64,000 nt of DNA from an uncultured Candidatus Saccharibacteria bacterium (GCA_964565195.1 CAZMCQ010000005.1:30697-94696), one strand, 5' to 3'; shown: positions 5,935-64,000, numbered from the stretch's first letter. Numbers and translations are program-made. The notes: generated by a model from the sequence alone, not told the origin.

Positions 5935-5952
5935 TTTTAGTGGTTTTTTTAT

Positions 5953-5990
5953 GTCTACAGACTATAGCAATTGCTATCGAGTGTAGACAA
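5953..5990. repeat. Nested palindromic element, copy A (TGTCTACA...ATAGCAATTGCTAT...TGTAGACA)
   Basis: Outer 8-bp inverted arms flank a perfect inner palindrome ATAGCAATTGCTAT. A T-run lies on the 5' side. A near-identical second copy sits at 28458..28495. Confidence 0.7.
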
Positions 5991-6004
5991 AAGAGATATA
6001 AGAC

Positions 6005-6611
6005 TTATAATGTTTGGAATTTTTTAGATAATATCCCTAGTTGTTTTTTGCGCATGATGAGGCGCGGGCCGGAGGCAATTATCTTTTTTGCAGCTTTTAA
6101 ATATTCTCTTGCGCGGGCTGGCTGGTCAGCGCGCAGGGCTTCAGCGAGGCGCATGTAGGCGCCGGAATGCCAGACATTGGCAGTGAAGGTGTCAAACTGG
6201 CCGAAATATTTTTTAACTTGATTCAATCCTTTTATCATCAGTTGCTCGCCTTTACTTTTTTGTCCGGCTAGATAGAGCGCGAACCCAAGATGGCCCGTCC
6301 AGTTTGTAGAAACTTGTGGCGAGTTTATAATTTCCATTTAACGCATGCATTTCTCCGACGATAAAAAGTGTGGTCGCGCTTTGCGCCAGCAATAATTGCG
6401 TTTCCGCGTCTTTGAGCGCGAGCATGGCCAGGTCAGGATTACGCGTCAATTGAAAGAGGTGTTTATAGATGTAGCTTCGGTGGCCAAAAGCAGAGGCAAG
6501 CGTTTTGTGATCGCGATCTTTTTGGAGCTGCCAAATGATCTTATTGACCAACAGAAAAGCCGCCTGGTGGCGGGCCTGTTCACGCAGCTTGGCTACTTGG
6601 GCTAGTCCCAT
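6005..6611 (-). pseudogene. TPR-repeat-like gene split into two overlapping frames (frameshift candidate)
   Basis: ORFs 6252..6611 and 6005..6337 are on the same strand in adjacent frames and overlap by 86 nt. Both show TPR-like periodicity (W..LG..Y..A, e.g. NWTGHLGFALYLAGQ). GC is about 46%, against about 58% in the flanks. Confidence 0.4.
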
Positions 6612-6618
6612 TGGTTTG

Positions 6619-6849
6619 TTATTTCATTCCGACTTTCTCTTCAAGTTTTTTGACGCGAACTTCGATGCGGTTGATATCGGCATAAAATGCTTTATCCAGC
6701 TTCGTCTCCACCAAACGCAGGCGATCATCAATTCCATCAACCTTTTTTTCCAGCCGTGCATGGTCATCTTTTGTGGCAGTGTTATCAAAACCAGCCTTGA
6801 TCATTTCGGCCAGATCATCCAGCGTTGTATTGTTATTTTTTTCAGCCAT
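6619..6849 (-). CDS. Small coiled-coil protein, paralog 1 (76 aa), function unknown
   Basis: GGAG lies 4 nt upstream of the ATG. The heptad-rich sequence ...LAEMIKAGFDNTATKDDHARLEKKVDGIDDRLRLVETKLDKAFYADINRIEV... is about 45% identical without gaps to the ORF at 28613..28855. The region is AT-rich. Confidence 0.6.
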   Translation of the reverse strand: MAEKNNNTTLDDLAEMIKAGFDNTATKDDHARLEKKVDGIDDRLRLVETKLDKAFYADINRIEVRVKKLEEKVGMK

Positions 6850-6880
6850 ATCTCCATATTAGAATGCTAAATAATTTTGG

Positions 6881-9090: not shown

Positions 9091-10191
9091 TTATCTCCAG
9101 GATTTTAATTCTAGATTTGGATTGGCCTTCACCTGGTCAAAAGTCCGAAGGTCGCGGTATCGATAATGATAACTCGCCGCGAGCGCGATCATGCCGGCGT
9201 TGTCAGTGGTGAGAGAAGAATTGGGAATTAGGAATTTGGAATTAGGGAAGAATTTTTTAATTGCAGCTTTCAGTTGATGCCGCAGTTTTTTATTGGCGGC
9301 CACGCCGCCGCCCAGGAGAATGGTTTTGACTTTGTATTCCCGCGCCGCGCGGATAGTCTTTGCGACCAATACATCGACAATGGCCCGCTCAAGCGAAGCG
9401 GCGATGTCGGCGCGCAGTTTGTCATCGCGAGGGCGGAGCCCGTGGCGATCTCGGGATTGCTTCCCCCGACCTTGCGTCGGGGTCGCAATGACATCATTAT
9501 ATAAATACAAAACCGCGGTCTTGAGGCCAGAAAAGGAAAAATCATAATTTTTTCGATCAAGCATCGGCCGCGGCAAATCAAATGCGCGCGGATTGCCTTG
9601 TTCCGCGAGCTTCGCAAGAGCGGGCCCGCCGGGATAAGGAAGCCCCAGCAGCTTGGCGACTTTGTCAAAACACTCGCCAGCCGCGTCATCCACTGTCTCG
9701 CCGATAATTTTGTATTGCCCGATCTTTTTGATTAGCACCAACATCGTATGCCCGCCGGAGACGATAAGGCCGAGGGCGGGAAAATAGGTTTTAGGAGATA
9801 GCTTATAGGTTATAGGAAGAGCGGACAGGAGATGGCCTTCCAAGTGGTTGATTGGAATGATTGGTTTGTTTAGCGCAAAGGCCAGGGCTTTGGCAGTATC
9901 CACGCCGATGCGAAGCGAGGTAACGAGGCCCGGGCCGATTGTGACAGCAATGGCATCAATTTCTCGGAGATGGACCCCCGCCTGCGCGAGGGCCTGCCTG
10001 ATTACAGGCAGGATTTTTAGGATATGGTTTCTGGCCGCGACTTCCGGCACAATGCCGCCAGTCTTGCGGTGGACCGCGATTTGCGAATAGATGATGTTGC
10101 TGCGGAGCTTCCCATCCGTCAAGACCGCGGCCGAGGTCTCATCCGCCGAGGTTTCAATGGCTAAGAGGGAAACTTTACGTTGTTTCTTCAT
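9091..10191 (-). CDS. tsaD: tRNA N6-adenosine threonylcarbamoyltransferase (Kae1/YgjD family)
   Basis: MKKQRKVSLLAIETSADETSAAVL... with the HLEGHLLSA metal-binding region. Start chosen at MKKQ (10189..10191) to avoid a 110-nt overlap with the upstream ABC gene. The C-terminal region contains an FPNSKFLIPNSS insertion encoded by the GGAATT repeat at 9221..9250. Confidence 0.85.
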   Translation of the reverse strand: MKKQRKVSLLAIETSADETSAAVLTDGKLRSNIIYSQIAVHRKTGGIVPEVAARNHILKILPVIRQALAQAGVHLREIDAIAVTIGPGLVTSLRIGVDTAKALAFALNKPIIPINHLEGHLLSALPITYKLSPKTYFPALGLIVSGGHTMLVLIKKIGQYKIIGETVDDAAGECFDKVAKLLGLPYPGGPALAKLAEQGNPRAFDLPRPMLDRKNYDFSFSGLKTAVLYLYNDVIATPTQGRGKQSRDRHGLRPRDDKLRADIAASLERAIVDVLVAKTIRAAREYKVKTILLGGGVAANKKLRHQLKAAIKKFFPNSKFLIPNSSLTTDNAGMIALAASYHYRYRDLRTFDQVKANPNLELKSWR

Positions 10192-20448: not shown

Positions 20449-20530
20449 TTGATAGAGTTTTGGTCTATATTAATGTGTTAACACGTTAATATAAGTAAGT
20501 AATTTTGAGCATGGAACAAAAGAAGGGGAA

Positions 20531-27685: not shown

Positions 27686-27704
27686 AAAGGAAGTATATCA
27701 ACTC

Positions 27705-27734
27705 TTGACCATTTTGATAATGCGATGTTATAAT
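27705..27734 (+). promoter_or_regulatory. Sigma70-like promoter (TTGACC-N17/18-TATAAT) for ORF 27834..28391
   Basis: ttgaccattttgataatgcgatgttataat. The downstream 5'UTR contains the 14-bp perfect palindrome gatccgcgcggatc (27770..27783). Confidence 0.5.
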
Positions 27735-27833
27735 GGGTTGTTCTATTCAGAGGAAGAATAGACCGCTACGATCCGCGCGGATCGAGTGCCTCAAATCACC
27801 GCTCTCAAAAGAGGGCAACGAACGGAGGAAACG

Positions 27834-28391
27834 ATGATTGAATACCTAAAGAAGGCAGTCGGCGATCTAGGAGTTAATATCCATCTTGCAATTCAGGCCC
27901 TTGATGGCGCAAGCCAAACTTGGCAAGGGGTGAGTCAAGTGGGATGGCGGCAGTGGAGGACATGCCCTAAGCTATTAATTTTTACGGACAGCCCAATCAC
28001 GTTCGATTTCAAATTGCGTTTTCCAACGCAGATCGGGACTGGTGACAGTAACTGGTTACATCGCCGCTACATCATGCAGGCTCAATTTCCTCCAGGCATG
28101 ATATTCGGTTTGGATTGTCGTGCTGATGAAGGGCAAGGCCCGGGGAATTCTCTGTCTTTGGAGGAATATTTGCGCGAGCGGGGAGTACCATATGAGCAGA
28201 TTATCGCAGTCATTCAGTATGAGTTTTTGCGCACCCCCAATTATTATGGTAATTCTTTGGGGGTGCACCTACTGTGGCCTTATGATTTTACCAAATTGCG
28301 GCGCAGGGTAGAGGATCAGTTTAGGAAGGCTTGCCCACTAGAAAGTCTTCTGACCGTCGCAGGTTTTCTCGGGGTGAATATAGCCCTTTAG
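27834..28391 (+). CDS. Hypothetical protein (185 aa), AT-rich, likely acquired
   Basis: GGAGG 6 nt before ATGATTGAATAC. About 47% GC against about 58% for neighbours. No recognisable domain. Confidence 0.55.
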   Translation: MIEYLKKAVGDLGVNIHLAIQALDGASQTWQGVSQVGWRQWRTCPKLLIFTDSPITFDFKLRFPTQIGTGDSNWLHRRYIMQAQFPPGMIFGLDCRADEGQGPGNSLSLEEYLRERGVPYEQIIAVIQYEFLRTPNYYGNSLGVHLLWPYDFTKLRRRVEDQFRKACPLESLLTVAGFLGVNIAL

Positions 28392-28457
28392 GTCCGGATA
28401 AGTAGAAAGAATCGGTGGACGATGTTTGTTCACCGATTTATTTTTTTGCTTGTTTTT

Positions 28458-28495
28458 TGTCTACGGAACATAGCAATTGCTAGAGTGCGTAGACA
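28458..28495. repeat. Nested palindromic element, copy B (TGTCTAC...TAGCAATTGCTA...GTAGACA)
   Basis: Same architecture and core as copy A at 5953..5990, again preceded by a T-run. It lies between ORF 27834..28391 and the small coiled-coil gene. Confidence 0.7.
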
Positions 28496-28508
28496 AGGTA
28501 TTTTGTTT

Positions 28509-28544
28509 GATGTAAAACTCATCCGGCCGGATGAGTTTTACATC
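28509..28544. promoter_or_regulatory. 36-bp perfect palindrome GATGTAAAACTCATCCGG|CCGGATGAGTTTTACATC
   Basis: 18-bp arms with no loop, 15 nt upstream of a consensus -35 box. Candidate operator or terminator. Confidence 0.6.
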
Positions 28545-28559
28545 ATTAGGATTTCAGCT

Positions 28560-28587
28560 TTGACAATAAAATCGCACGGAGTATAAT
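28560..28587 (+). promoter_or_regulatory. Near-consensus sigma70 promoter TTGACA-N16-TATAAT driving ORF 28613..28855
   Basis: ttgacaataaaatcgcacggagtataat. The -10 box ends 25 nt before the ATG at 28613. Confidence 0.6.
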
Positions 28588-28612
28588 AATTTTACGTCTT
28601 TAATTTATTGCC

Positions 28613-28855
28613 ATGGCGAAACAAAACGATAAGGATATATCCAATGAAGAACTGGCCGAAATGGTGGCCAGGGGTTTTGAAAATGTCGATAAGCGATTTG
28701 ACGGCGTAGATAAGAAACTTGATGATGTTGAAACGCGATTGACATTGGTTGAGCGAAAAGTCGATAAGGCAATGTATCTTGATTCCCAACGCGTTGACAA
28801 ATTGGAAAAACAAGTCAAAACTATTCAAGAGAAACTCGGAATCGCGCAAAATTAA
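28613..28855 (+). CDS. Small coiled-coil protein, paralog 2 (80 aa)
   Basis: ...LAEMVARGFENVDKRFDGVDKKLDDVETRLTLVERKVDKAMYLDSQRVDKLEKQVKTIQEKLG aligns without gaps to the ORF at 6619..6849. Confidence 0.6.
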   Translation: MAKQNDKDISNEELAEMVARGFENVDKRFDGVDKKLDDVETRLTLVERKVDKAMYLDSQRVDKLEKQVKTIQEKLGIAQN

Positions 28856-28903
28856 AAAACGGCCCTTACTGGCCGTTTTTTAATGGAAATGAACAGTGAG
28901 TAA

Positions 28904-30718
28904 TTAGACTTGTATTACTACGGGTAAGACCATAGGTCGGCGTTCGGTCCTCTGAAAGAGGAACTCGCCGATCTGGTCGCGGATTTGGTTTCGGATAAAC
29001 GCCCAGTTCGCCTCGTGCGGTTTGTGATTGTGAGTTTCTACGACTTTGCGGACTTCATGCTTGACCTCACGAATGAGGTCTTCCGAGCCCTTCATATACA
29101 CGAACCCGCGCGAGATGATATCCGGGTGATTGACGAGTTTGCCACTCCGGCGGTCCACGCTCATGATCACCACGAACATGCCGTCTTTGGCCATGACCTG
29201 CCGGTCGCGCAGCACCACCTCGCCGACATCGCCGACCCCGAGGCCATCCACGAAGATGAGCCCCGAGGAAACCTGCTCGCCAAGCTTGCGCGCGCCATGC
29301 GGACCGATCTCCAGCACCTGGCCGTTGTCCACGATAAAGATATTTTCCCGTTTTACGCCCACTGATTCGGCCAGGTTCGCATGCGCCACCAGCATGTAGT
29401 GTTCGCCGTGAATCGGCATAAAGTATCTCGGCTTGGTGAGCGAGATCATGAGTTTGAGGTCTTCCTGGCGCGCGTGGCCCGAGGTGTGCACATCGAGAAT
29501 TTTCTGGTAAAGCACGTGCGCGCCCTGGCGGGTGAGATCATTCATCACTGACGCGATCGCCCGCTCGTTGCCCGGGATGGGCGAGGCCGAGACCACGACC
29601 GTGTCGCCCGGTTTGATGCGGATGGTTTTGTGTTCCTGCCGCGCGATGCGCGCGAGGGCTGCCGCCTCTTCGCCCTGGGAGCCGGTCGTGAGAATCAGAA
29701 CTTTATTATCCGGCAATCTGTGGGCCGCTTCGGCAGTAACAATGGTTCTTTTTGGAATGTCGAGATAGGCCATACCATGGGCGATTTCGACATTGGTCAC
29801 CATACTTCTCCCGGTGACCACGACCTTGCGGTCCATTTTTACGGACGAGTTGATGGCCTGTTGGATGCGCGAGATGAGCGTGGAGAAGGTCGCGAAAATC
29901 ACGCGGCCTGGCGCATCTTTGACGATGCGGTCAATGGTTTCGCCAAGTTCCTTTTCCGAGATGGAATAGCCGGGTTCGTTGGCATTGGTCGAGTCTGACA
30001 TCAGGAGATCCACGCCCTCGCCGCCGAATTTAGCGATTTTGTCAAACTCGCTCGGCTTCTGGTCCACCGGCGTGTGGTCGAATTTCCAGTCCGTGGCGTA
30101 GACGACGTGCGCGGCCGGAGTTTTGATGGAGAGGCCGACCGAGTCCGGAATGTTGTGATTCAGGCGGAAGAAACGGATGGTGAAGACGCCGAGCGTAAGC
30201 GTATCGTCCTTGCTCACCCGATGGATTTTGGAGCGGCCCTGGAGATGAAATTCCTCGAGGCGCTTGTCAATAAACGCGGCCGTGAGCGGCATGGTGTACA
30301 CGTCTGGATCGCCGATTTTCGGCAGGATGTAAGGCACGGCGCCGATGTGATCGAGGTGGCCGTGGGTGATGATCACGCCGCGGATATTTTTTTTCCGTTC
30401 CTGCAGATATTTGGTATCCGGAATAACATAATCAATTCCCGGCATGGTTTCATCCGGGAACGCCAGGCCCATATCCACGACGATGATGTCATGGCCGTAT
30501 TCGAACATGGTCATGTTTTCACCGACCTCTTCCACGCCGCCAAGCGGAATGACGCGCAGGCGCGCCCCGCCTTCGCCAAGGCTTCGGCGGGCAGGCTCAC
30601 TCTTTTGTGTCGCTTGAGCACCACGGGCGTACTGAACAGAGCGCGAGACCGGCAGGTGGCGCACCATTCGTTTTCTCATTCCCGAATGGGTCCGGGAACT
30701 TCTGGTAAAGGCAATCAT
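28904..30718 (-). CDS. rnj: Ribonuclease J (metallo-beta-lactamase/beta-CASP RNase)
   Basis: LRVIPLGGVEEVGENMTMFEYGHDIIVVDMG, HGHLDHIGAVPY (HxHxDH), beta-CASP and a C-terminal domain. The true start is probably an internal Met upstream of LRVIPLGG. Confidence 0.88.
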   Translation of the reverse strand: MIAFTRSSRTHSGMRKRMVRHLPVSRSVQYARGAQATQKSEPARRSLGEGGARLRVIPLGGVEEVGENMTMFEYGHDIIVVDMGLAFPDETMPGIDYVIPDTKYLQERKKNIRGVIITHGHLDHIGAVPYILPKIGDPDVYTMPLTAAFIDKRLEEFHLQGRSKIHRVSKDDTLTLGVFTIRFFRLNHNIPDSVGLSIKTPAAHVVYATDWKFDHTPVDQKPSEFDKIAKFGGEGVDLLMSDSTNANEPGYSISEKELGETIDRIVKDAPGRVIFATFSTLISRIQQAINSSVKMDRKVVVTGRSMVTNVEIAHGMAYLDIPKRTIVTAEAAHRLPDNKVLILTTGSQGEEAAALARIARQEHKTIRIKPGDTVVVSASPIPGNERAIASVMNDLTRQGAHVLYQKILDVHTSGHARQEDLKLMISLTKPRYFMPIHGEHYMLVAHANLAESVGVKRENIFIVDNGQVLEIGPHGARKLGEQVSSGLIFVDGLGVGDVGEVVLRDRQVMAKDGMFVVIMSVDRRSGKLVNHPDIISRGFVYMKGSEDLIREVKHEVRKVVETHNHKPHEANWAFIRNQIRDQIGEFLFQRTERRPMVLPVVIQV

Positions 30719-32908: not shown

Positions 32909-34762
32909 TTATATTTGTTCTTTTAAAATTTTCGCTTTTGCCTCGCCGATGACCTCTGCGATTTCGTCATGCGAGGTTTTTTTTATTTCCGCAGCCGAGC
33001 CGAATTTTTTTAAGAGTTTTTTCTTGAGCACTGGCCCAATCCCAGGGATCTCGTCGAGCCGCGAACGGACCATCGCGCGGCCGCGCCGCCCGCGGTGAAA
33101 GGTCGCGGCAAACCGGTGCGCCTCGTCGCGGAGGCGCTGCAGCAGATGCAGAACCAGAGAATTTTGCGGCAGACGAATCGGTTGTTTTTTTTGGGAAAGA
33201 TAAATTTCTTCGAGCCGTTTGGCCAAAGCGATCTTGGGAATTGGGAATTGGGAATTGGGAATTGCGGCTTCCGCCGCGTTGAGCTGTCCGCGGCCGCCGT
33301 CAATGATGATGAGGTCAGGGGTTGGCCAGGTTTTCGACCTCTCCCTTTCTCCCTCCCCATCACCTGGGGAGGGAACTCCTCTCTCCAGGAGGTGGAGAGA
33401 GGATGGGAGAGGGGTCGAGATATGCCCGAACCTTCTCTCCAACATCTCCCGCATCATCGCCACGTCATCTGGCGTTTCCTTGATATTGATTTTGAATTTT
33501 CGGTACTGCGATTTGTCTGGCCGGCCCTGCGTGAAAACTATCATTGAACCCACGGGATGGGTGCCCTGCATATTGGAGATATCAAAAGCTTCGATCCGCT
33601 CCGGCAATTTCGGAAGATTGAGAAGCCTTTTTAATTCCTCGAGAATTTTCGTCTCGTCTTCTTTTTCGAATGTGGCGCGTTCGCGTTCATAGTACGCCCG
33701 CGCGTTTTCGCCGGCCAGCTGCATCAGTTTGCCCTTGCGGCCGCGCACGGGCACAGCGATTTTAACTTTTGCTTTTCGCAATTTGCCGAGCGCGGCTTCC
33801 ACGATGTCGCTGTTTTCGATGCGGCCCGGCAAAAAAATATTTTTCGGGATGTCGGAACTGTCCTGATAATATTGCACGATGAAGCGTTCGAGGATTTCGC
33901 CCGCCGGCGCGCTATCATGCGTAAGCGTAAAATGCTCCTGGTTTAGGAGTTTCCCTTCGCGGACCAAGAATACATTGACCACTGCTTCAGTCGGAGCGGT
34001 GTATAGGCCGAGGTAGTCCTCATTTTCTTTTTTGGGCGAGATGACTTTTTGCCGTTCCCAGATCGAAAGCAGGGCGCGAAGCTTGTCGCGGAGCAGCGCC
34101 GCGTATTCAAAATTTTTCTCCCGCGCCGCCTGCTTCATATCGTGTTTTAGATCTGCGATTACCGCGCCTTGCTTATGTCTCAAAAAATCACCAATCTCTT
34201 TCATCTGGTGCCGGTATTGTGAAAGAGAAATTTCGCCGACGCAGACACCCGGGCAGCGTTTCAGATGATAGGCAAAGCAGGGCCTGCTGGTGATTTTTTT
34301 GTTCCGGCAAAGATGGAAAACATTTTCGATGAGTTTCAAAGTGCGGCGGACGGCGAGGCCGGAAGTGTAGGGGCCGAAGTATTTTGCTTGCGCCCGCGAT
34401 CCCAATTTACGAACCGGGTATATTTGGGGAATTGCAGAGGCGTAATCGATCTTGATGAACTGGTAGTTTTTATCGTCGCGCAGCAGGATGTTATAGCGCG
34501 GCTGGTACTGCTTGATGAGGTTGTTTTCGAGAATCAGACTTTCCACTTCGTTGGAGACCAGGAAATAGTCGAGGTCAGCGATCTCGGCAATCATCATTTC
34601 TGTGCGCGTCTCGCGGCCAGAGCTTTTGATGAAATAACTGCGCACGCGAGCGCGCAGATTTTTCGCCTTGCCGACATAAATAATTTCTCCGGCCGCATTT
34701 TTGTATAAATACACGCCGGGTTTGGCAGGAAGGGTGTTTAGCTTGCTTTCAAGCAACGACAT
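32909..34762 (-). CDS. uvrC: Excinuclease ABC subunit C
   Basis: N-terminal GIY-YIG ([30 protein letters not shown]), a UvrBC-interaction region and C-terminal RNase H-like/HhH domains. It contains in-frame insertions encoded by the (GGGAATT)4 repeat and two GC-rich hairpins. Confidence 0.93.
33236..33263. repeat. (GGGAATT)x4 perfect heptanucleotide tandem repeat inside the uvrC coding sequence
   Basis: tt-gggaatt-gggaatt-gggaatt-gggaatt-gcgg. It encodes [11 protein letters not shown] in UvrC. Related copies occur in tsaD (9221..9250) and the minor-pilin leader (52938..52992). Confidence 0.85.
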
Positions 34763-39233: not shown

Positions 39234-39260
39234 TTAGCACTTAGACTGCTAGAGTGCTAA
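39234..39260 (+). promoter_or_regulatory. CIRCE operator (TTAGCACTT-N9-GAGTGCTAA) upstream of hrcA
   Basis: Matches the CIRCE consensus TTAGCACTC-N9-GAGTGCTAA with one mismatch. It ends 5 nt before the hrcA ATG. Confidence 0.85.
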
Positions 39261-39265
39261 TTGGT

Positions 39266-39967
39266 ATGACACAGCGGCAGGCCCAAATTTTGGCGGCAAT
39301 TGTCAAAGAATACAGCGAAACCGGCACGCCGGTGGCGTCTTTGGATTTGGCCAAAAAATACAACTTTGACATAAGTCCCGCGACGATTAGAAATGAAATG
39401 GTCATTCTGGAAGACGAGGGGTATATCACCCAGCCGCACACTTCGGCCGGCCGCATTCCGACTGACGCGGGCTACCGGTATTTCGTGAACAAACTGATGA
39501 AGCATCTGGAACTTTCCAGTCAGGAACAGCTGCGGCTGCAGGAGGAAATTCGCAAACTGCAGAAGCAGTACCTCGAGCTCGGACAGGGGCTGGCCAAGCT
39601 GCTCGCCCAGAAGACCGAGGGCGCGGCTTTTGCGCTCCTCCCCCAAGGAACGAGCGCTGCGGGGCTATCCAATGTCATTGAGCAGAGTTCGAGCGTGGAT
39701 GAGATGAAAGAGATGGCGCATTTTTTGGATGAGCTGGAAGAACGCGGCCAATCTTTGGTCAAGACCCATTCCGAAGAGGTTGAAACTCTGATCGCGCCGA
39801 GCTACAGTCTGCTGGTCCGCCGCGTGCGCTTGCCGGGCGGGGACCGCGGCGTGATCGGCATCGTGGGCCCGAAGCGCATGAAATACGCGCGGAACATATC
39901 GCTGTTGGAATATGTTAGCAAGTTTCTTGCAGGTGGTTTGGTATTGCTGATGGTTGTTAAGCTATGA
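39266..39967 (+). CDS. hrcA: Heat-inducible transcription repressor HrcA (short form, 234 aa)
   Basis: TQRQAQILAAIVKEYSETGTPVASLDLAKKYNFDISPATIRNEMVILEDEGYITQPHTSAGRIPTDAGYRYFV N-terminal wHTH, with a CIRCE just upstream and grpE-dnaK-dnaJ downstream. Confidence 0.85.
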   Translation: MTQRQAQILAAIVKEYSETGTPVASLDLAKKYNFDISPATIRNEMVILEDEGYITQPHTSAGRIPTDAGYRYFVNKLMKHLELSSQEQLRLQEEIRKLQKQYLELGQGLAKLLAQKTEGAAFALLPQGTSAAGLSNVIEQSSSVDEMKEMAHFLDELEERGQSLVKTHSEEVETLIAPSYSLLVRRVRLPGGDRGVIGIVGPKRMKYARNISLLEYVSKFLAGGLVLLMVVKL

Positions 39968-40074
39968 AATGTAAAATGCAAATATCAAAGTGCAAAATGA
40001 CAGTTGAAAATTAAAAATTTTGGATTTTACATTGTCATTTTGATTTTTGCATTTTGAATTTTAAATTTTTGAAA

Positions 40075-43630: not shown

Positions 43631-43707
43631 TGGTGGAGATAGCCGGATTCGAACCGGCGACCTTCGCATTGCAAATGCGACGCTCTAACCAGCTGAGCTA
43701 TATCCCC
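43631..43707 (-). tRNA. tRNA-Ala (anticodon UGC), CCA encoded
   Basis: Reverse complement GGGGATATAGCTCAGCTGGTTAGAGCGTCGCATTTGCAATGCGAAGGTCGCCGGTTCGAATCCGGCTATCTCCACCA. Confidence 0.9.
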
Positions 43708-43956
43708 TCATTGCCCTTTCAATCCGCTGAAGATTGACGCCAGCGGGCCGAGGAACAGTTCCAAAAGGCCAAACATATACATTCCGGACAGGATGATTGC
43801 TGCCAGCCCGATCAGTTTGTAAAGCAAATACGTCCCGCCGGAGGAGAGATGCTGCTCGGCCCAAGGCACCTTGCCGAAAAGGCCGACCAGCGGATAAGTC
43901 TTCCAGATGAGCAACGTGCCGAGGCCGATGCCAATTAGTCCCCAAATGATGCGCAT
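43708..43956 (-). CDS. Small membrane protein (82 aa, 2 TM helices) packed exactly between tRNA-Ile and tRNA-Ala
   Basis: MRIIWGLIGIGLGTLLIWKTYPLVGLFGKVPWAEQHLSSGGTYLLYKLIGLAAIILSGMYMFGLLELFLGPLASIFSGLKGQ. The ATG lies 5 nt after the tRNA-Ile CCA and the TGA stop abuts the tRNA-Ala 5' end. There is no Shine-Dalgarno sequence. Confidence 0.35.
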   Translation of the reverse strand: MRIIWGLIGIGLGTLLIWKTYPLVGLFGKVPWAEQHLSSGGTYLLYKLIGLAAIILSGMYMFGLLELFLGPLASIFSGLKGQ

Positions 43957-43961
43957 ATGTT

Positions 43962-44036
43962 TGGTGGGCACGGATGGAATCGAACCATCGACCCCTTCAT
44001 TATCAGTGAAGTGCTCTGCCCCTGAGCTACGTGCCC
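43962..44036 (-). tRNA. tRNA-Ile (anticodon GAU), CCA encoded
   Basis: Reverse complement GGGCACGTAGCTCAGGGGCAGAGCACTTCACTGATAATGAAGGGGTCGATGGTTCGATTCCATCCGTGCCCACCA. Confidence 0.9.
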
Positions 44037-52912: not shown

Positions 52913-52913
52913 A

Positions 52914-53020
52914 ATTTCTAATTTCTAATTTCTAATGAAATCCCAAATCCCAATTTCCAATTCCCAATCAAATCCCAAATCCCAATTTCCAAAATTGGTC
53001 ATTGGTCATTGGTCATTGGG
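52914..53020 (+). repeat. Three tandem-repeat tracts at the 5' end of the minor pilin gene: (ATTTCTA)3 abutting the ATG, a 32-nt tandem duplication, and (TTGGTCA)3
   Basis: 52914..52934 is (atttcta)x3. 52938..52992 holds two copies of aaatcccaaatcccaatttccaa separated by ttcccaatc. 52995..53015 is (ttggtca)x3. None of the unit lengths is a multiple of 3. Confidence 0.85.
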
Positions 53021-58748: not shown

Positions 58749-59264
58749 ATGCCATTGAATAAAAAAATAATATTGCTGGCAGGCGCTTTACTCGTGCTTT
58801 CGGGGGCGGGTTATTTTTTATTTATACAAGAACAGGCGAGGGAGCGCGAGGAGAATCCTATAGATAAAATCTCCTCTTCAAATTTTAAAGATCTAAAACC
58901 AGTTGCTGCTCCCAAAGAAATCCCGACGGGATTTCCGGACAAGTATCTGCCGGTGCCGCGCTCGGAACTGAATGCGCAAAATATTTTGTATGGCCAGCAA
59001 GTCACGGAAAATGAACAAGTCTCCTTTTCTTTGAGTTTTGATATCAACCGGACCCCAGAACAGATTTTGGATTTTTATAGAAAATTATTTGCCGCAGAGG
59101 GCTGGCAGAACCAAACTATTTCAGCCGATGAACAGGCGAGACTGGATCCGAATCAAACTCGTCTGCGCGCCTTCAGCCAAGACGGCATTATGGCTTTTGT
59201 CGTTACCGTCGAAAAACTGGAGGAAGGTCTAACTCGTATTGCAATTCTCTATGCTCCATTTTAG
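58749..59264 (+). CDS. Membrane-anchored protein with GFP...GW motif (paralog of 53535..53999)
   Basis: TM helix IILLAGALLVLSGAGYFLFI. Shared motifs with the ORF at 53535..53999. Immediately upstream of the giant adhesin gene, which overlaps its 3' end. Confidence 0.6.
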   Translation: MPLNKKIILLAGALLVLSGAGYFLFIQEQAREREENPIDKISSSNFKDLKPVAAPKEIPTGFPDKYLPVPRSELNAQNILYGQQVTENEQVSFSLSFDINRTPEQILDFYRKLFAAEGWQNQTISADEQARLDPNQTRLRAFSQDGIMAFVVTVEKLEEGLTRIAILYAPF

Positions 59265-62200
59265 GCGATATTTTTCCCAACAACTGCCCTACCTTTTGTT
59301 GTTTTTTGGAATTGCGGTTTGGTTTTTTTTGCTTTGGTCTCAAGTTGAAGCGGCTCCTCCAGGATCATGTTCTGGACCATCCAATTTTGGCATTGACAAC
59401 GTTTGTGCGGCTTTCAGCAACCACCGGCCCTCTTATGTACCGGATAATTTTACTCTGCCAGTCCCGAATTCAGAAAATGACCCTCGTTTTTCTATCGCTA
59501 TAGTTTACCCCATCAAGTTTTATACCAGGAATGTTTTGGGTAGATTTACAGTTGATGAGAAATCGCCTGATGTTACAGGGGGGGGCTCGGTTCCAGTTTG
59601 TGATCTTGGTGAAGGATATGGGTACGCATCCTTTGATGCCTTTTATGGAGGCGATCACTACGCCGGCACTGATAGCTGTATGGCACCAGCCCCTCGCATC
59701 CTTAGAGATGATCTGGGTTTGGCAGGGGATAAGGAATACAAATATTATGGAGAATTATTTGATAACATAAGGGGGCGGGTTATTGATAGTACCAATCCCG
59801 ATCCACTTAACAGAAGTTCGCTTTGCGCTGTTATTTCGCCTGGCGATTATTGCAGCTATACCGTCGTTCGGGTTTATGTACCCAAGCCGCAGCTTGCGGC
59901 GAGCGGCCCGGCCTCGCGGAGCGCCAATGAGACGAGCGTGGCCATCGCGCTCGCCGGCAGCCAGTCATCGCTTGGGAGCGGGACCAGCAGTCAGGGACGG
60001 GACAAGCTCATTTACCGCTATTGGGTGGATGGCAATGCCCCCAGCAGCGATACCAATACGGGCGCGCGAAGTTTCAACACCAACCTGAATCTGAATTTGG
60101 ACTGCAACGCGCACACCGTAACCGTGGAGCTGCGCAACGGCTACCCCCAAGTGCCGAACGTCAATCCGGTGAGCAAGACAGTCAATGTTCCCGCCTGTGC
60201 CAAGTCGGTCACCATTCAGGGCCGGGTCTGGTATGACGAGGATCGCAACGGCACGCAGGATGGCTATATCAAGCGGCCTTTTATCTCCTGCAGCGGATTG
60301 GATGTCGGCCATGTGATCACCCTGAATACCGGCCAGTCTGCTTATTTGGATGGCTGTGATGCCGCGGGCGCCACCTACCAGTTTACGGGCTTGCCTTTGG
60401 CGGATTACACAATAACTTTGGGCGGGCTGTCTGGCTGGCATTTGTTGAGTACCAATCCGGTCACGGTTACGAAAGCGGAATTTGAGGCAAAAAATTATGT
60501 CGCTGATGTTTGGTTTGCGGTCCAGAAGGATGCCCCGCCGCCGCCGGGAAGTTTCACGCTCTCGGTTAGCAAAGATGGCACTGGCTCGGGCACAGTGACG
60601 AGCGCGCCGGCCGGCATCAATTGCGGGGTAACCTGCAGCGCCAATTTCACTGATGGCACGAGTGTTGCCTTGACCGCGAGTGCGGCCTCCGGCTCAACCT
60701 TTGGCGGCTGGAGCGGGGCCTGTTCTGGCACGGGCGGCTGCAGCGTAACTATGAATGCGAACAAGACCGCCACCGCGACTTTTACCAAGACCGGCGGGGG
60801 CGGCAGTTTGGAGGTCACTTTGACGGCCAGCCCATTTTCCGGCACCGGCACAATCAATTCCACTTTATCCGCCTCGGTCAACACTGCCTCAAGTTCGGGA
60901 ACGCCAGTGCCGCCCTACACTTATTCTTTTGATTGCACGAGTGACGGAACATACGAGCATGTCTCCGCTCCAACCAACAGCAACCCTTATTCGTTCAGCA
61001 CTTGCACTTATAGTTCCAGCAGTACCGCAAAAGTTGATGTGGCGGACAGCGCCGGGCAAAGAGGCAGCGCTACGACCCCGATTACGATTGGCGCGCCGCA
61101 GCCGCAAGGCGACACCTGTCCGCAAAATTCCAGCGACCCGGACAACCCTTATGAAGCGCCGCGCGATAAATACAGCGCCTGCGTCTTCAGTAATACCACG
61201 TTGAGCCCCGGCTCAACCTCGCCGCTTGGCGTGTTTGATAATCAATATGCCGGTTATTTTGAGGAAACGCCTCTTGCCCCGCCGCCTTCCGGCCGCGTCC
61301 GTCACGATTACGGCAACGGGAAACCAAAGTGCGGCACGACCGGCGCGCCGGCGCCGACCAATGACTGCAACGGCAACGATAATTTTTCCATCCGCTGGAT
61401 GGGTAATTTTTCCTTTAACCGCGGCCAGTACCGGTTCACGGCCCGCGCCGATGACGGCGTACGACTGTACGTTGACGGCACGCGCATCATTGACGCCTGG
61501 CGCGACCAGCCGCCGACGACTTATACCGCGGACCGCGCTTTGAGCGCCGGCTATCATGCCGTGCAGGTGGAATACTACGAAAAAGGCGGCGGCGCGTATA
61601 TCGAATTTTACTGGGAACTCCTGCCGTGCACCACAGTTGTCAATGGCGATAAGGCCGTGGTTACAAGCGATCTTGGCACAGTCGGAACTGCGCTCAATCC
61701 CGGCGGAATCGCCTGGAACGCGGGCGACCCGATTCCGCGCGAAGTGGCCCTCACCATGCGCAACTGCGGCGACACCACCTGGCAGGCCGCAAACCATTAT
61801 CGCCTCGGCGCGACGAATGATGTGACCATCTGGGGCGCCGGGCGAGTGCGGATGAGCAGCGCTGATTCCTGGGGCGGCACCGTGAGCAACAAAACCCCCA
61901 AAGACACCGTTGCCCCCAATGAGAGCATTACCTTTACGTTTGACGTGACCGCGCCATCCGAGGACGCAGTGAAAAACGGCCGGGATTCAAGCGGCGCCAA
62001 GATTTGTACGAAACAATCCGGTAATACTTATAACTGCAATTTCCGCTACCAGATGCTCCATGAAGCCGTGGCCTGGTTTCCGGACATCGCGGCCGCAACC
62101 GTGAAGGTCGTGATTGATCCCTGTTCGCGCAGCTACCCGCGCGACAGCTGGCAGGCGTGCATCTATAACAAGTCGCCGTTCAACGACTTCGATGCGGCGT

Positions 62201-64000
62201 TTTTCCACAAGGAGATTAGCGATGCTGTGCCGAAGACTAATGCCTACCCGGCGCCGCCGCCGCGGAAAATTTACCATGACTGGGGGGAGAGCGGCCCGCT
62301 CGGCCCGGCCACGACCAACTCCGGACCGCCTTTTTACCTTACCGAGGAGACCGGCAACCCGGTAGATGATTTCAGCGTGCGCTGGCGGGGCAAGTTTAAG
62401 TTTGATAGCGCCGAGTATCAATTTGCGGCCTGCAGCGACGACGGCATCCGTATCTACGTGGATGGTGAAGCGGCAAGCAACCGCATTCTTGAGGACTGGC
62501 GCCCGCGCGCATGCGATGATCCCTCTGGCAGCAGCGGCCGGGTGACGGCGAACAAAGTCTTGGCCGCGGGCGACCACCAAATTATGGTGGAGTATTTTGA
62601 AAGCAGCGGCCAGGCAGTAATTGATGTTTATTGGGAAAAGGTCACGGTTTTGGCGCCAATTGCTGATCCCACGGCTGCGCCCTTTTGTTCTGGCAGTGAT
62701 TCCAAAGCCACCATCTCCTGGAGCGAGGCCGGCCGTGGCAGCGCTGGCTACTTCGTGGATATAGACAATGATAATAACTGGAACAATGGTTTTTGGAATA
62801 AAAATATTCCGTCAGGAACTTTGTCCACCACTGCGCCGGACGGATTTAACGGCTATAATGGGCCGAGCGGGCCGATGCCGCCCCTGCAAGCCGGGGCAAC
62901 CTACCAGGTCCGCATTTTCTACATTGCCACCGGCGAGCACTCCAGTACCGTAAGTTTCAAGGCGAGCACCTGTACCGGCACCTTTACCATCAACGTCGCG
63001 CCGGCCACGCGCACGATCACCCAGGGCGACGCGACGACCTACAATGTCAATGTTTCCTGCAGCGGCAGCTTCGCGGGTCCGGTGACGAATCTGAACGTAA
63101 CCAATCTGCACACCAACACGAACCCTTCTTTCAATCCGACTTCCATAAACTGCAGCGGCCCGGGGGGCAACTCCACGCTTACCATTACCACCTCGGCCGC
63201 GACGCAAACCGGCACCAAAACCCTGAACGTCAATGGCGACGGGGCCGGCGCGGGCACGCAGACCGGCAATGCGGACCTGACCGTCAATGCTCTCGAGCCG
63301 CCGGAAGAGCCGTGCGTCAACAACTGCACTCCGCCGCCGCCCACGGGCGGGTGCTCCGGAACCAATTGCACCAATCCGCCGCCGGGTTTGGGCGGGCAGC
63401 TCGGCGTCGCGGTAAGCTGCGAGCAGATTCTGTTCGCCTGGCAGGACAGGTCCGATAACGAAGACGGCTTCCATGTCTGGCGCGCGCCGTCGTTTGGCGG
63501 GACGACATTGACTTATGAGGGCCGGACCTATTCGCTGCTTGGCACCAAGGGTGCGAACGTGGAATATCATCTTGATACCACCGCTCTCCCTGACCAGTCC
63601 TATTGGTACGCGGTGACCAGCTACAATGCCGGCGGCGATTCCGCAGCAGATGGCCTGGGCCCGATTTTCAATACCGCTTGCGCGGCAAATCTCTCGCTGT
63701 CCGACAAAGTGATTGATTCCGTGAACGGCAGTCCTTACGTCGTCGGGCAGTCCATCAAAAACGGGGACACTGTGCGGTTCCGCATCATCATCAACAACAG
63801 CGGCAATACGGCGGCCTACGACGTGTATGTGGACGATACCATCTCGAGCAACCTGCAGTACACCGGCAACCCGACGATCCAGCGCGGCTCGGGCTCGGAG
63901 AGCGGCATTTCCGTTTCCCAAAACGGGCAGAATCTGATTTTTGACGCTGGTCGGAACCTCGGCGACAAGGATGCCGACAGCCAGAACTGGCTTGTGCGGT
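59251..64000 (+). CDS. Giant secreted multidomain surface/adhesin-like protein with two PA14 domains, 3'-truncated by the window edge (over 1580 codons in the window)
   Basis: Frame 1 is open from the TAA at 59230..59232 to nt 64000. The supplied ORF track lists no frame-1 + ORF after 59251. N-terminus MLHFRRYFSQQLPYLLLFFGIAVWFFLLWSQVEA (ATG 59251; alternative TTG 59239 with AGGAAGG 11 nt upstream). PA14-like blocks: NDNFSIRWMGNFSFNRGQYRFTARADDGVRLYVDGTRIIDAW...YHAVQVEYYEKGG and DDFSVRWRGKFKFDSAEYQFAACSDDGIRIYVDGE...DHQIMVEYFESSG. Also a Cna-B/SdrD-B-like region, a divergent InlB-B-repeat-like region, an FN3-like region and DUF11/CARDB-like segments. Confidence 0.85.
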   Translation, partial: MLHFRRYFSQQLPYLLLFFGIAVWFFLLWSQVEAAPPGSCSGPSNFGIDNVCAAFSNHRPSYVPDNFTLPVPNSENDPRFSIAIVYPIKFYTRNVLGRFTVDEKSPDVTGGGSVPVCDLGEGYGYASFDAFYGGDHYAGTDSCMAPAPRILRDDLGLAGDKEYKYYGELFDNIRGRVIDSTNPDPLNRSSLCAVISPGDYCSYTVVRVYVPKPQLAASGPASRSANETSVAIALAGSQSSLGSGTSSQGRDKLIYRYWVDGNAPSSDTNTGARSFNTNLNLNLDCNAHTVTVELRNGYPQVPNVNPVSKTVNVPACAKSVTIQGRVWYDEDRNGTQDGYIKRPFISCSGLDVGHVITLNTGQSAYLDGCDAAGATYQFTGLPLADYTITLGGLSGWHLLSTNPVTVTKAEFEAKNYVADVWFAVQKDAPPPPGSFTLSVSKDGTGSGTVTSAPAGINCGVTCSANFTDGTSVALTASAASGSTFGGWSGACSGTGGCSVTMNANKTATATFTKTGGGGSLEVTLTASPFSGTGTINSTLSASVNTASSSGTPVPPYTYSFDCTSDGTYEHVSAPTNSNPYSFSTCTYSSSSTAKVDVADSAGQRGSATTPITIGAPQPQGDTCPQNSSDPDNPYEAPRDKYSACVFSNTTLSPGSTSPLGVFDNQYAGYFEETPLAPPPSGRVRHDYGNGKPKCGTTGAPAPTNDCNGNDNFSIRWMGNFSFNRGQYRFTARADDGVRLYVDGTRIIDAWRDQPPTTYTADRALSAGYHAVQVEYYEKGGGAYIEFYWELLPCTTVVNGDKAVVTSDLGTVGTALNPGGIAWNAGDPIPREVALTMRNCGDTTWQAANHYRLGATNDVTIWGAGRVRMSSADSWGGTVSNKTPKDTVAPNESITFTFDVTAPSEDAVKNGRDSSGAKICTKQSGNTYNCNFRYQMLHEAVAWFPDIAAATVKVVIDPCSRSYPRDSWQACIYNKSPFNDFDAAFFHKEISDAVPKTNAYPAPPPRKIYHDWGESGPLGPATTNSGPPFYLTEETGNPVDDFSVRWRGKFKFDSAEYQFAACSDDGIRIYVDGEAASNRILEDWRPRACDDPSGSSGRVTANKVLAAGDHQIMVEYFESSGQAVIDVYWEKVTVLAPIADPTAAPFCSGSDSKATISWSEAGRGSAGYFVDIDNDNNWNNGFWNKNIPSGTLSTTAPDGFNGYNGPSGPMPPLQAGATYQVRIFYIATGEHSSTVSFKASTCTGTFTINVAPATRTITQGDATTYNVNVSCSGSFAGPVTNLNVTNLHTNTNPSFNPTSINCSGPGGNSTLTITTSAATQTGTKTLNVNGDGAGAGTQTGNADLTVNALEPPEEPCVNNCTPPPPTGGCSGTNCTNPPPGLGGQLGVAVSCEQILFAWQDRSDNEDGFHVWRAPSFGGTTLTYEGRTYSLLGTKGANVEYHLDTTALPDQSYWYAVTSYNAGGDSAADGLGPIFNTACAANLSLSDKVIDSVNGSPYVVGQSIKNGDTVRFRIIINNSGNTAAYDVYVDDTISSNLQYTGNPTIQRGSGSESGISVSQNGQNLIFDAGRNLGDKDADSQNWLVR

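What the first reader, a model, noticed from the sequence alone, without database searches (positions are those of the whole stretch)
28458..28495. Conserved nested palindromic DNA element present in two copies (5953..5990 and 28458..28495)
Both copies have the architecture T-run, then TGTCTAC(A), a 5-6 nt spacer, the perfect core palindrome (A)TAGCAATTGCTA(T), a 4-7 nt spacer, then (T)GTAGACA. The core and outer arms are identical between copies while the spacers differ. That pattern suggests selection on a protein-binding site, with the dimeric core plus flanking half-sites, or on a structured RNA/DNA hairpin, rather than recent duplication. Copy A lies 3' of rpoC and 3' of the minus-strand islet genes. 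Copy B lies between the islet ORF and the coiled-coil gene's promoter. Neither is followed by a T-tract on either strand, so they are not canonical terminators.
Basis: seen in the sequence. Interest (0 to 1): 0.6.

Follow-up and report, generated by a model that had tools for sequence, protein, structure and literature searches.

The report
Two-copy 38-bp nested palindrome
A 38-base nested palindrome occurs twice in this uncultured (CPR/Patescibacteria) bacterial genome, each time in a small accessory gene islet. Its stems are letter-perfect between copies and its two spacers are scrambled, so it is real and constrained, but no other copy turned up in any collection searched, so its job can only be inferred.

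Summary
Two 38-nt copies (5952-5989 and 28458-28495) share the layout TGTCTAC-N6-TAGCAATTGCTA-N6-GTAGACA. All 26 arm and core positions are identical, and all 7 differences fall in the 12 spacer positions (P=6e-5). The flanks are unrelated. No third copy exists in the window, even with a covariance model.

Exact half-pattern scans of 185,579 species genomes, JGI metagenomes and IMG/VR gave only chance hits, none with both arms. BLAST against plasmid and phage collections found nothing.

The host is a Patescibacteria (CPR) bacterium near Doudnabacteria. Both copies lie in low-GC ORFan islets between housekeeping genes, and each islet carries one of two paralogous small coiled-coil genes. The orthologous islet of a relative keeps the terminator, second palindrome, promoter and coiled-coil gene but lacks the element. 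Other relatives lack the islet entirely.

The element is not a canonical terminator, CIRCE, parS, attC, an Rfam family or a TIGR guide unit.

Best reading (about 0.37): a duplex-DNA site recognised sequence-specifically by a symmetric oligomeric protein. Rivals are an RNA hairpin, a REP-like selfish palindrome, and a symmetric promoter module. This is a modestly interesting, lineage-specific element whose function is unproven.

The parts
5952..5989 (.). Copy A of the element: TGTCTAC AGACTA TAGCAATTGCTA TCGAGT GTAGACA. It is the only stable hairpin in the 70-nt gap between the convergent rpoC (stop 5934) and the islet-A operon (stop 6005).
   Evidence: (I4)
28458..28495 (.). Copy B of the element: TGTCTAC GGAACA TAGCAATTGCTA GAGTGC GTAGACA. 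It lies between terminator T1 and the second palindrome, with its centre about 118 nt upstream of the inferred start site of the coiled-coil gene cc-B.
   Evidence: (I5)
28409..28457 (+). Terminator T1 of the 201-aa ORF (14-pair stem) plus a T-rich tract that runs up to copy B. T1 is conserved in relative L050.
28508..28545 (.). Second palindrome (pal2): a perfect 38-nt palindrome with an A4-stem-T4 shape, which suggests a bidirectional intrinsic terminator. Its palindromic character is kept in L050 through a compensatory change.
   Evidence: (I2)
28560..28587 (+). Consensus sigma-70 promoter of cc-B: TTGACA-16-TATAAT, 12 of 12. It is conserved in L050.
28613..28855 (+). cc-B, an 80-aa protein predicted as a single long helix. 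It belongs to a small coiled-coil protein family whose named hits are Patescibacteria.
27786..28391 (+). ORFan of 201 aa in islet B. It has no homologs or domains, and the structure model is poor (pLDDT 46).
6619..6849 (-). cc-A, a 76-aa paralog of cc-B (39% identity). It is the first gene of the islet-A operon, whose promoter TTGACC-17-TAATAT lies at 6884-6856.
6005..6611 (-). Two overlapping ORFs of 119 and 110 aa downstream of cc-A; the 119-aa ORF has weak TPR similarity. They may be one frameshifted gene. Copy A follows their stop codon by 15 nt.
5984..6011 (+). Near-consensus promoter-like site TAGACA-16-TATAAT (11 of 12). Its -35 hexamer is the right arm of copy A, and it points antisense into the islet-A operon.

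Best explanation
The element is most likely a lineage-specific cis-acting site read as duplex DNA by a symmetric, sequence-specific protein. That protein would be a dimer of dimers or a tetramer, and it is encoded outside the window.

The conserved letters form four triplet contacts, CTA-N7-TAG-N6-CTA-N7-TAG, centred at element positions 5, 15, 24 and 34. They are about one helical turn apart, so they lie on one face of the helix. The two 6-nt spacers need only keep their length.

Bound protein would act as an operator or roadblock inside two accessory islets that carry strong promoters and sit against essential genes (rpoC-valS and trpS-rnj). At copy A it would cover the -35 hexamer of a near-consensus antisense promoter and stand between convergent transcription units. 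At copy B it sits in a transcriptionally insulated gap upstream of the cc-B promoter.

Shown: the anatomy, the pattern of constraint, the islet context, and the absence from relatives. Inferred: that a protein binds, which protein it is, and the regulatory consequence.
For: - Constraint is on sequence, not only on pairing. All 26 arm, core and apical-loop positions are identical, while the 12 spacer positions differ at 7 sites, which is near saturation (P=6e-5). There is not one compensatory or G-U change in 11-13 pairs.
- Spacer length is exactly 6+6 in both copies.
- The stems are perfect Watson-Crick on both strands.
- Copy B lies between terminator T1 and the terminator-shaped pal2, and upstream of a promoter. 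It should therefore be poorly transcribed on either strand.
- The right arm of copy A doubles as the -35 hexamer of an 11/12 promoter-like site.
- Both copies fall in the two coiled-coil islets (P about 0.004). In L050 the same slot between T1 and pal2 holds a different short repeat, TATCTCG twice. That is what lineage-specific regulator sites would look like.
- No known RNA family matches.
Against: - No candidate binding protein was found. The islet proteins show no DNA-binding domain: cc-B is modelled as one long acidic helix and the 201-aa ORF gave no usable model.
- The only regulator in the window is HrcA, which has its own canonical CIRCE elsewhere.
- Two operators for one regulator are rarely identical at 26 of 26 specified positions.
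- The two copies sit differently relative to the coiled-coil genes. Copy A is about 630 nt downstream of cc-A and copy B about 120 nt upstream of cc-B.
- Relatives express the same gene family without the element.
- With only two copies, recognition of sequence cannot be rigorously separated from recognition of structure.
Confidence: 0.37

Rival explanations
1. The element acts as an RNA (or single-strand DNA) hairpin in 3' untranslated regions. It has an 8-pair outer stem, a 6x6 internal loop and a 4-5-pair inner stem, and lies at the end of the rpoC and islet transcripts. It would protect 3' ends from exonucleases, be cut by a double-strand RNase, or help stop convergent transcription.
For: - The folds are stable on both strands: -16 to -21 kcal/mol, z from -3.7 to -5.2.
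- Copy A is the only hairpin in the 70-nt gap between convergent rpoC and the islet-A operon. No real terminator precedes it, since the upstream fold has z=-0.4.
- Both copies lie 3' of a + strand gene and follow a T-rich tract.
- Relatives of the coiled-coil gene sit next to RNA-turnover genes: rnj, and rpsO-pnp.
Against: - No U-tract follows either copy on either strand, whereas this genome uses canonical terminators, namely T1 and the cc-B terminator.
- Copy B sits after an efficient-looking terminator and before another, so little transcript should contain it.
- Stems and apical loop are identical rather than covarying although the spacers are saturated.
- No G-U pairs are present.
- No Rfam match.
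Confidence: 0.2
2. The element is a small selfish or mobile palindrome of the REP/REPIN kind, or a recognition hairpin for a transposase or recombinase. Copies were inserted into permissive accessory hot spots. The stems are conserved because the mobilising enzyme needs them, and the loops are free to vary.
For: - It is a sharply bounded 38-nt unit in unrelated flanks.
- It is extragenic, lies at gene 3' ends, and in one case sits between convergent genes.
- Both host sites are variable accessory islets. The rnj-trpS gap is empty in L055 and L056, holds a different ORF in L042, and holds a coiled-coil gene without the element in L050.
- Each 19-nt half is itself an imperfect inverted repeat (TGTCTA-N7-TAGCAA), as in REP doublets.
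- The arms contain GTAG/CTAC.
- Identical scaffold with unrelated spacers suits copies that descend from different family members.
Against: - Only two copies in 64 kb, and none in any public collection.
- No target-site duplication.
- No transposase, RAYT or recombinase in the window.
- REP families normally show stem variation among copies.
- At 38 nt it is shorter than known MITEs.
Confidence: 0.17
3. The element is a symmetric promoter module. Each strand reads TTGTCT (-35), an 18-nt spacer, then TGnTAnnnT (extended -10). It would fire short transcripts outward in both directions, which the neighbouring hairpins would stop.
For: - Three of the four strand-copies (A minus, B plus, B minus) meet an extended -10 criterion. 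Only 28 sites in the whole window meet it, with about 10 expected by chance.
- The two positions conserved in the left spacer (A10, A13) are exactly the T3 and T6 of the minus-strand -10 hexamers TATAGT and TATGTT.
- The promoter-like site upstream of the 201-aa ORF in this genome also has an 18-nt spacer with TG.
- Copy B is boxed in by two hairpins of bidirectional-terminator shape.
Against: - No gene lies downstream in any of the three directions. The targets are antisense rpoC, antisense 201-aa ORF/T1, and pal2.
- A promoter has no need for a perfect nested palindrome or for 26 invariant positions.
- The -35 hexamer is only 4/6 and the 18-nt spacer is long.
- The plus strand of copy A fails (TATCGA lacks the final T).
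Confidence: 0.1
4. The element is a solo dual-spacer guide RNA scaffold related in outline to the stem-loop TIGR units of CPR bacteria. It would have an outer stem, spacer A, a small hairpin, spacer B and the outer stem again, with the two variable 6-7-nt stretches pairing to a target.
For: - An identical scaffold with unrelated spacers is the hallmark of guide arrays.
- The outline matches stem-loop tigRNAs described in CPR, including a roughly 5-bp hairpin between the spacers (bioRxiv 10.64898/2026.09.09.750476).
- CTA is an accepted box C variant in that paper's detection method.
- A terminator-shaped hairpin follows copy B.
Against: - No boxC-N8-10-boxD (TG/CG) interval fits either copy when checked by hand against the motifs. 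The variable stretches are 6-7 nt, not 8-12.
- There is no tandem array.
- No Nop-domain/Tas protein was detected in the window.
- No spacer-pair target occurs in the window in any geometry tried.
Confidence: 0.05

Closest known systems
Palindromic operators bound by two dimers (for example QacR IR1, or Arc/MetJ-type sites bound by a tetramer) - recalled from general knowledge, not tested
   Same: A 30-40-bp symmetric site with four sequence-specific contacts about one helical turn apart. It is intergenic and overlaps or lies upstream of promoter hexamers. Spacer letters are free and spacer length is fixed.
   Different: No cognate protein is known. There is no sequence similarity to any described operator. 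Identity at 26 of 26 positions between sites is unusually strict. One copy lies at the 3' end of an operon rather than in a 5' region.
REP / REPIN extragenic palindromes mobilised by RAYT transposases
   Same: A short imperfect palindrome, extragenic, at gene 3' ends and between convergent genes. It is built from two inverted half-units and contains GTAG/CTAC.
   Different: Only two copies are seen. The stems are invariant rather than variable. No RAYT gene is in view. GTAG lies inside the stem rather than flanking it. The total length is far shorter than a REPIN.
Stem-loop TIGR guide units (TIGR-Tas systems) of CPR bacteria (Science 2025, PMC12045711; bioRxiv 10.64898/2026.09.09.750476)
   Same: The outline is outer stem / variable stretch / small conserved hairpin / variable stretch / outer stem. 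The scaffold is conserved and the two spacers are unrelated between units. The host is a CPR bacterium.
   Different: No box C-N9-box D (TG/CG) intervals, spacers of 6-7 nt rather than 8-12, no tandem array, no Tas (Nop-domain) gene nearby, and no target match.
CIRCE operator of HrcA (TTAGCACTC-N9-GAGTGCTAA)
   Same: The TAGCA/TGCTA pentamers of the core are those of the CIRCE arms. Copy B shares an 11-mer (TGCTAGAGTGC) with this genome's own CIRCE, and both right spacers contain GAGTG.
   Different: The pentamers are 2 nt apart instead of 15. The 9-N9-9 pattern is absent even with 3 mismatches. The genuine CIRCE sits upstream of hrcA at 39234-39260.
Integron attC recombination sites
   Same: Nested inverted repeats: 7-bp outer boxes, an unpaired spacer and inner boxes. 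The element sits at the 3' end of ORFan genes in accessory DNA.
   Different: The outer boxes do not fit RYYYAAC/GTTRRRY. The element is fully symmetric with no extrahelical bases. At 38 nt it is shorter than the shortest attC (57 nt). There is no array and no integrase. In L050 the swapped ORF and the element slot are separated by a conserved terminator.

Membership tests
Intrinsic (Rho-independent) terminator | GC-rich hairpin followed directly by a U-tract on the transcribed strand | tested here: not met
   The hairpins are followed by AAAGAG / AGGTAT on the + strand and TAAAAA / AAAAAA on the - strand. The terminator scan did not flag them but did flag T1; the cc-B terminator (28851-28884, A-run-stem-T-run) is seen (I16).
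REP/REPIN (RAYT-associated) | Tens to hundreds of copies per genome | not testable with these tools
   Only 64 kb of this genome is available. There are two copies in it and none in public collections.
REP/REPIN (RAYT-associated) | Extragenic imperfect palindrome of about 20-40 nt | tested here: met
   38 nt, 83-84% self-complementary, and both copies intergenic.
REP/REPIN (RAYT-associated) | Cognate RAYT (IS200/IS605-like Y1 transposase) gene in the genome | tested here: inconclusive
   None among the window's ORFs by Pfam. The rest of the genome was not seen.
CIRCE / HrcA operator | Inverted repeat TTAGCACTC-N9-GAGTGCTAA | tested here: not met
   The pattern with up to 3 mismatches hits only 39234-39260, upstream of hrcA. 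The element shares only an 11-mer and the pentamers.
TIGR stem-loop guide unit | [quoted passage not shown] | tested here: not met
   The stem is present (7-8 bp). After each CTA, however, the next TG/CG is not at 8-10 nt. The layout is CTA-N7-TAG (sequence; criteria).
TIGR stem-loop guide unit | Tandem array next to a tas (Nop-domain) gene | tested here: not met
   The two units are solitary and 22.5 kb apart. There is no Nop hit in any window ORF at E<=1 for the unannotated ones, and no match to solved structures for five ORFs tested: the three islet ORFs and two other unannotated ORFs.
Integron attC | R''/R' boxes RYYYAAC / GTTRRRY with asymmetric extrahelical bases | tested here: not met
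   The arms are TGTCTAC / GTAGACA, and the hairpin is symmetric on both strands.
parS (ParB centromere) | 16-bp palindrome TGTTNCACGTGAAACA | tested here: not met
   No match with up to 3 mismatches in the window. The element has no similarity to it.
Sigma-70 promoter (extended -10 type) | -35-like hexamer, 16-18-nt spacer, TGn plus TAnnnT | tested here: inconclusive
   Met on A minus (9/12), B plus and B minus (8/12), and not on A plus. Transcription was not measured.
Any Rfam RNA family | Score at or above the family's gathering threshold | tested here: not met
   Only four tRNAs in the window reach the gathering threshold. Permissive scans of both loci gave only sub-threshold chance hits.

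The most novel reading that the evidence does not exclude
The two elements are solitary genes for a hairpin guide RNA with a programmable 6x6 internal loop. This would be a minimal relative, or independent analogue, of the dual-spacer box C/D-like guides (stem-loop TIGR units) recently found in CPR bacteria. It would use CUA/UAG anchors and shorter spacers and work with an effector encoded elsewhere in the genome. An identical scaffold with unrelated spacers is what such a system produces by design.
Probability: 0.06. Interest if true: 0.8.

Novelty: new variant of a known kind. Interest (0 to 1): 0.35.

Why it matters
CPR/Patescibacteria have very few recognisable regulators and almost no characterised cis elements. 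A 38-bp site that is invariant at 26 positions and free at 12 would give a clean handle for finding an unknown DNA- or RNA-binding factor in an uncultured lineage.

It could also help explain how small accessory islets wedged between essential genes (rpoC-valS and trpS-rnj) are kept from interfering with them.

If instead it proves to be a REP-like repeat, it would be an early example of such selfish palindromes in a reduced CPR genome.

Practically, the finding shows that this element is private to one lineage. Any claim of a conserved role with the coiled-coil gene family is not supported.

Tried and rejected
- Searches for further copies. The exact half-pattern TAGCAATTGCTA-N4-8-GTAGACA gave 12, 22 and 5 hits in genome contigs, metagenome contigs and viral contigs. 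All lacked the other arm, so they are chance hits. blastn against plasmids and phages found nothing. A covariance model of the two copies found nothing else in the window (filters off) or in 180 kb of related loci.
- Literature search for the 12-mer returned only primer sequences.
- Canonical terminator: rejected, because no U-tract follows.
- CIRCE: rejected, because the real one is at 39234-39260.
- parS: rejected.
- Boundaries of a 22.5-kb mobile island: rejected, because the interval holds valS, tsaD, typA, trxB, rpsF, ychF, pgm and trpS.
- Integron-like cassette end: rejected. In L050 the swapped ORF and the element slot are separated by the conserved terminator T1, and the arms do not fit attC boxes.
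- Longer duplicated unit that includes the left flank (CACCGA plus T-rich tract): rejected, because flank alignments score no better than shuffles.
- Binding by islet proteins: no support. cc-B is modelled as a single long helix with an acidic N-terminus. The 201-aa ORF model was unusable, pLDDT 46. Pfam, PHROGs, PADLOC, NCBIfam and PDB searches gave only coiled-coil noise.
- TIGR-like targeting: no adjacent or spaced match to the spacer pairs anywhere in the window.
- cc-B alone had no homolog in the word-indexed search. A profile was needed.
- No coiled-coil relatives in viral contigs.

Full report
**Observation**

The window holds two 38-nt elements, at 5952-5989 and 28458-28495, with the same layout:
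- Copy A: TGTCTAC-AGACTA-TAGCAATTGCTA-TCGAGT-GTAGACA
- Copy B: TGTCTAC-GGAACA-TAGCAATTGCTA-GAGTGC-GTAGACA

The spacers are 6+6 nt in both copies, not 5-6 and 4-7.

Dinucleotide-preserving shuffles gave 0 matches to the arm pattern and 0.09 to the core 12-mer, against 2 observed for each. The heptamer TGTCTAC occurs nowhere else in the 64 kb. No third copy appears with three mismatches or with an unfiltered covariance-model search.

Copy B is also present, base for base, in an independent Logan assembly of run SRR12113384. That contig breaks at the perfect palindrome next door.

**Pattern of conservation**

The copies differ at 7 of 38 positions, and all 7 lie in the 12 spacer positions (hypergeometric P=6.3e-5). 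Spacer divergence of 58% is close to saturation. Even so, the 14 arm positions, the 8 inner-stem positions and the 4 apical-loop positions are all unchanged, with no compensatory or wobble substitution.

The flanks are unrelated apart from T-richness on the left. Local alignment scores are matched by 27-72% of shuffles. The orientation of A relative to B cannot be decided: identities are 31 versus 30 of 38. The unit is therefore a sharply bounded 38-mer, not the remnant of a recent segmental duplication.

**Organism and context**

The genes are those of a CPR/Patescibacteria bacterium. TrpRS is 100% identical to a protein known only from NCBI and Logan, and the next relatives are 73-76% identical, including a Candidatus Doudnabacteria MAG.

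The window is core chromosome. It carries:
- rpoB and rpoC, valS, tsaD and transporters
- typA, trxB, rpsF, ychF, pgm, trpS and rnj
- uvrC and uvrA
- an hrcA-grpE-dnaK-dnaJ operon with a canonical CIRCE
- a type IV pilus cluster

Both elements lie in short low-GC stretches (43-46% against about 55%) that hold ORFans.

Islet A (5935-6880) contains a promoter at 6884-6856, then cc-A (76 aa), then two overlapping ORFs of 119 and 110 aa (the 119-aa one weakly TPR-like) on the minus strand. Copy A follows their stop codon by 15 nt and the stop of the convergent rpoC by 17 nt.

Islet B (27686-28903) runs in this order on the plus strand, ending convergent with rnj:
1. a promoter and a 201-aa ORFan
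2. a strong terminator, T1
3. copy B
4. a perfect 38-nt palindrome (pal2) shaped like a bidirectional terminator
5. a 12/12 consensus promoter
6. cc-B (80 aa)
7. a bidirectional terminator

cc-A and cc-B are 39% identical. They and the element are the only things the two islets share. If two elements were dropped at random into the 29 intergenic gaps, the chance of one landing in each islet is about 0.004.

**Relatives**

Exact scans for half of the element in 185,579 species genomes, JGI metagenomes and IMG/VR returned only chance matches, none with the second arm. Plasmid and phage collections gave nothing.

The coiled-coil proteins belong to a real family. A two-sequence profile finds 1038 cluster representatives at E<=1e-3. 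The hits that carry source names are from Patescibacteria lineages (Doudnabacteria, Ryanbacteria, Paceibacterota) or unclassified bacteria.

The orthologous locus of a relative with 73% TrpRS identity (L050) keeps T1, an imperfect palindrome in the position of pal2 with a compensatory change, the TTGACA/TATAAT promoter, the cc-B ortholog and its terminator. In place of the element it has TTTTGTCTA followed by an unrelated 24 nt that contains a tandem TATCTCG.

Two other relatives have rnj and trpS directly adjacent, and another has an unrelated 152-aa ORF there. The rnj-trpS gap is therefore an accessory hot spot, and the element is private to this lineage.

None of 17 other loci carrying coiled-coil homologs has the element or a structural look-alike.

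**What the element is not**

- It is not a canonical terminator. No T-run follows on either strand, and the genome uses ordinary terminators elsewhere.
- It is not CIRCE. The true CIRCE lies at 39234-39260. Curiously, copy B shares an 11-mer with it (0 of 20,000 random 27-mers do so), and the core pentamers TAGCA/TGCTA are those of the CIRCE arms.
- It matches no Rfam family, parS or attC boxes.
- The 22.5 kb between the copies is housekeeping DNA, so the copies do not bound a mobile island.
- The islet proteins give no sign of DNA binding. cc-B is modelled as one long helix (pLDDT 82). The 201-aa ORF could not be modelled. Domain and structure-sequence searches returned only coiled-coil noise.

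**How it most likely works**

Several features point to sequence-specific recognition of duplex DNA by a symmetric oligomer:
- invariance of every stem and loop letter alongside saturated spacers
- exact conservation of spacer length
- perfect Watson-Crick symmetry on both strands
- four CTA/TAG triplets spaced 10, 9 and 10 bp apart, on one face of the helix

Copy B lies between two terminator-shaped hairpins and upstream of a promoter. Little transcription should cross it there, which favours a DNA-level role. The right arm of copy A is the -35 hexamer of an 11/12 promoter-like site that points antisense into the islet-A operon.

I therefore rate an operator or roadblock site in accessory islets as the best single explanation (0.37). 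Binding itself, the identity of the protein and the regulatory effect are all inferences.

**Rivals**

- RNA hairpin (0.20). It is supported by stable folds and by copy A being the only hairpin between convergent rpoC and the islet-A operon, with no real terminator before it. It is weakened by the lack of covariation and by the insulated position of copy B.
- REP/REPIN-like selfish palindrome or enzyme-recognition hairpin (0.17). This fits the sharp boundaries, the 3'-end and convergent-gene locations and the accessory hot spots. There are only two copies, however, with no target duplication and no transposase in view. The genome-wide count is unavailable.
- Symmetric promoter module (0.10). 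Three of four strand-copies read TTGTCT-18-TGnTAnnnT, a criterion met by only 28 sites in the window. The two conserved left-spacer positions are the T3 and T6 of the minus-strand -10 hexamer. No gene lies downstream, though.
- Dual-spacer guide RNA (0.05). The outline resembles the stem-loop TIGR units described in CPR bacteria (PMC12045711; bioRxiv 10.64898/2026.09.09.750476). The defining features fail: box C-N9-box D intervals, an array and a Tas protein are all absent, and no target was found.

**Verdict**

The element is a lineage-specific nested palindrome of unproven function. It is best filed as a new variant of the known kind 'short repeated intergenic palindrome or operator-like site'. 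Interest is moderate to low (0.35). There is a small chance (about 0.06) that it is a minimal guide-RNA scaffold, which would be much more interesting. The decisive data are the complete genome, read-level polymorphism and transcript-end mapping.

Noticed in passing
window 28508-28545: Perfect 38-nt palindrome TGATGTAAAACTCATCCGG|CCGGATGAGTTTTACATCA, 12 nt after copy B. It has an A4-stem-T4 shape like a bidirectional terminator. Relative L050 has an imperfect palindrome at the same place with a compensatory change (GTAAAA/TTTTAC to GGAAAA/TTTTCC). A Logan contig breaks here.
   Followed up: partly
window 39234-39260: Canonical CIRCE (TTAGCACTTAGACTGCTAGAGTGCTAA) directly upstream of hrcA (39254-39967), followed by grpE-dnaK-dnaJ. 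It shares the 11-mer TGCTAGAGTGC with copy B, and both right spacers of the element contain GAGTG. The meaning is unknown.
   Followed up: partly
window 39967-40068: AT-rich inverted repeat with 51-nt arms (75% complementary) filling the gap between hrcA and grpE.
   Followed up: no
window 20466-20493: 28-nt near-perfect palindrome TATATTAATGTGTTAACACGTTAATATA, just after the thioredoxin-reductase-like gene. It looks like an operator.
   Followed up: no
window 9218-9243, 33238-33263, 52913-52976: Tracts with a 6-nt period of the GGAATT / GGGAATT type (and the complement, AATTCC-like), recurring at three places.
   Followed up: no
window 58749-63921: About ten consecutive ORFs without any Pfam hit even at E<=1. 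This may be another accessory block.
   Followed up: partly
window 43631-44036: A tRNA-Ala(TGC) and tRNA-Ile(GAT) pair, 254 nt apart, with no rRNA genes on either side.
   Followed up: no
window 5984-6011: Near-consensus promoter-like site TAGACA-16-TATAAT (11/12) that uses the right arm of copy A as its -35 hexamer. It points antisense into the islet-A operon.
   Followed up: partly
window 27686-28903; L042 9384-10000; L050 1994-2781; L055 939-1013; L056 3912-4000: The gap between rnj and trpS is a hot spot for lineage-specific inserts. It is empty in two relatives, holds a 152-aa ORFan in one, a zinc-ribbon ORF plus coiled-coil gene in another, and a 201-aa ORFan plus element plus coiled-coil gene here.
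   Followed up: yes
L062-L071 (for example L062 3001-5928); window 28613-30718: Members of the small coiled-coil protein family sit next to RNA-turnover genes. One lies 8 nt upstream of rpsO-pnp in one lineage. Here and in L050 the gene is convergent with rnj. A TPR gene neighbours the family member in L052, and a weakly TPR-like ORF follows cc-A.
   Followed up: partly
L052 8833-8874 and 9472-9511: In another Patescibacteria contig, two related 38-42-nt perfect palindromes (CGTCACAAA..CGTGCGGCCGCACG..TTTGTGACG) flank a PaaX-like regulator gene. They differ from each other by paired, symmetry-preserving changes.
   Followed up: no
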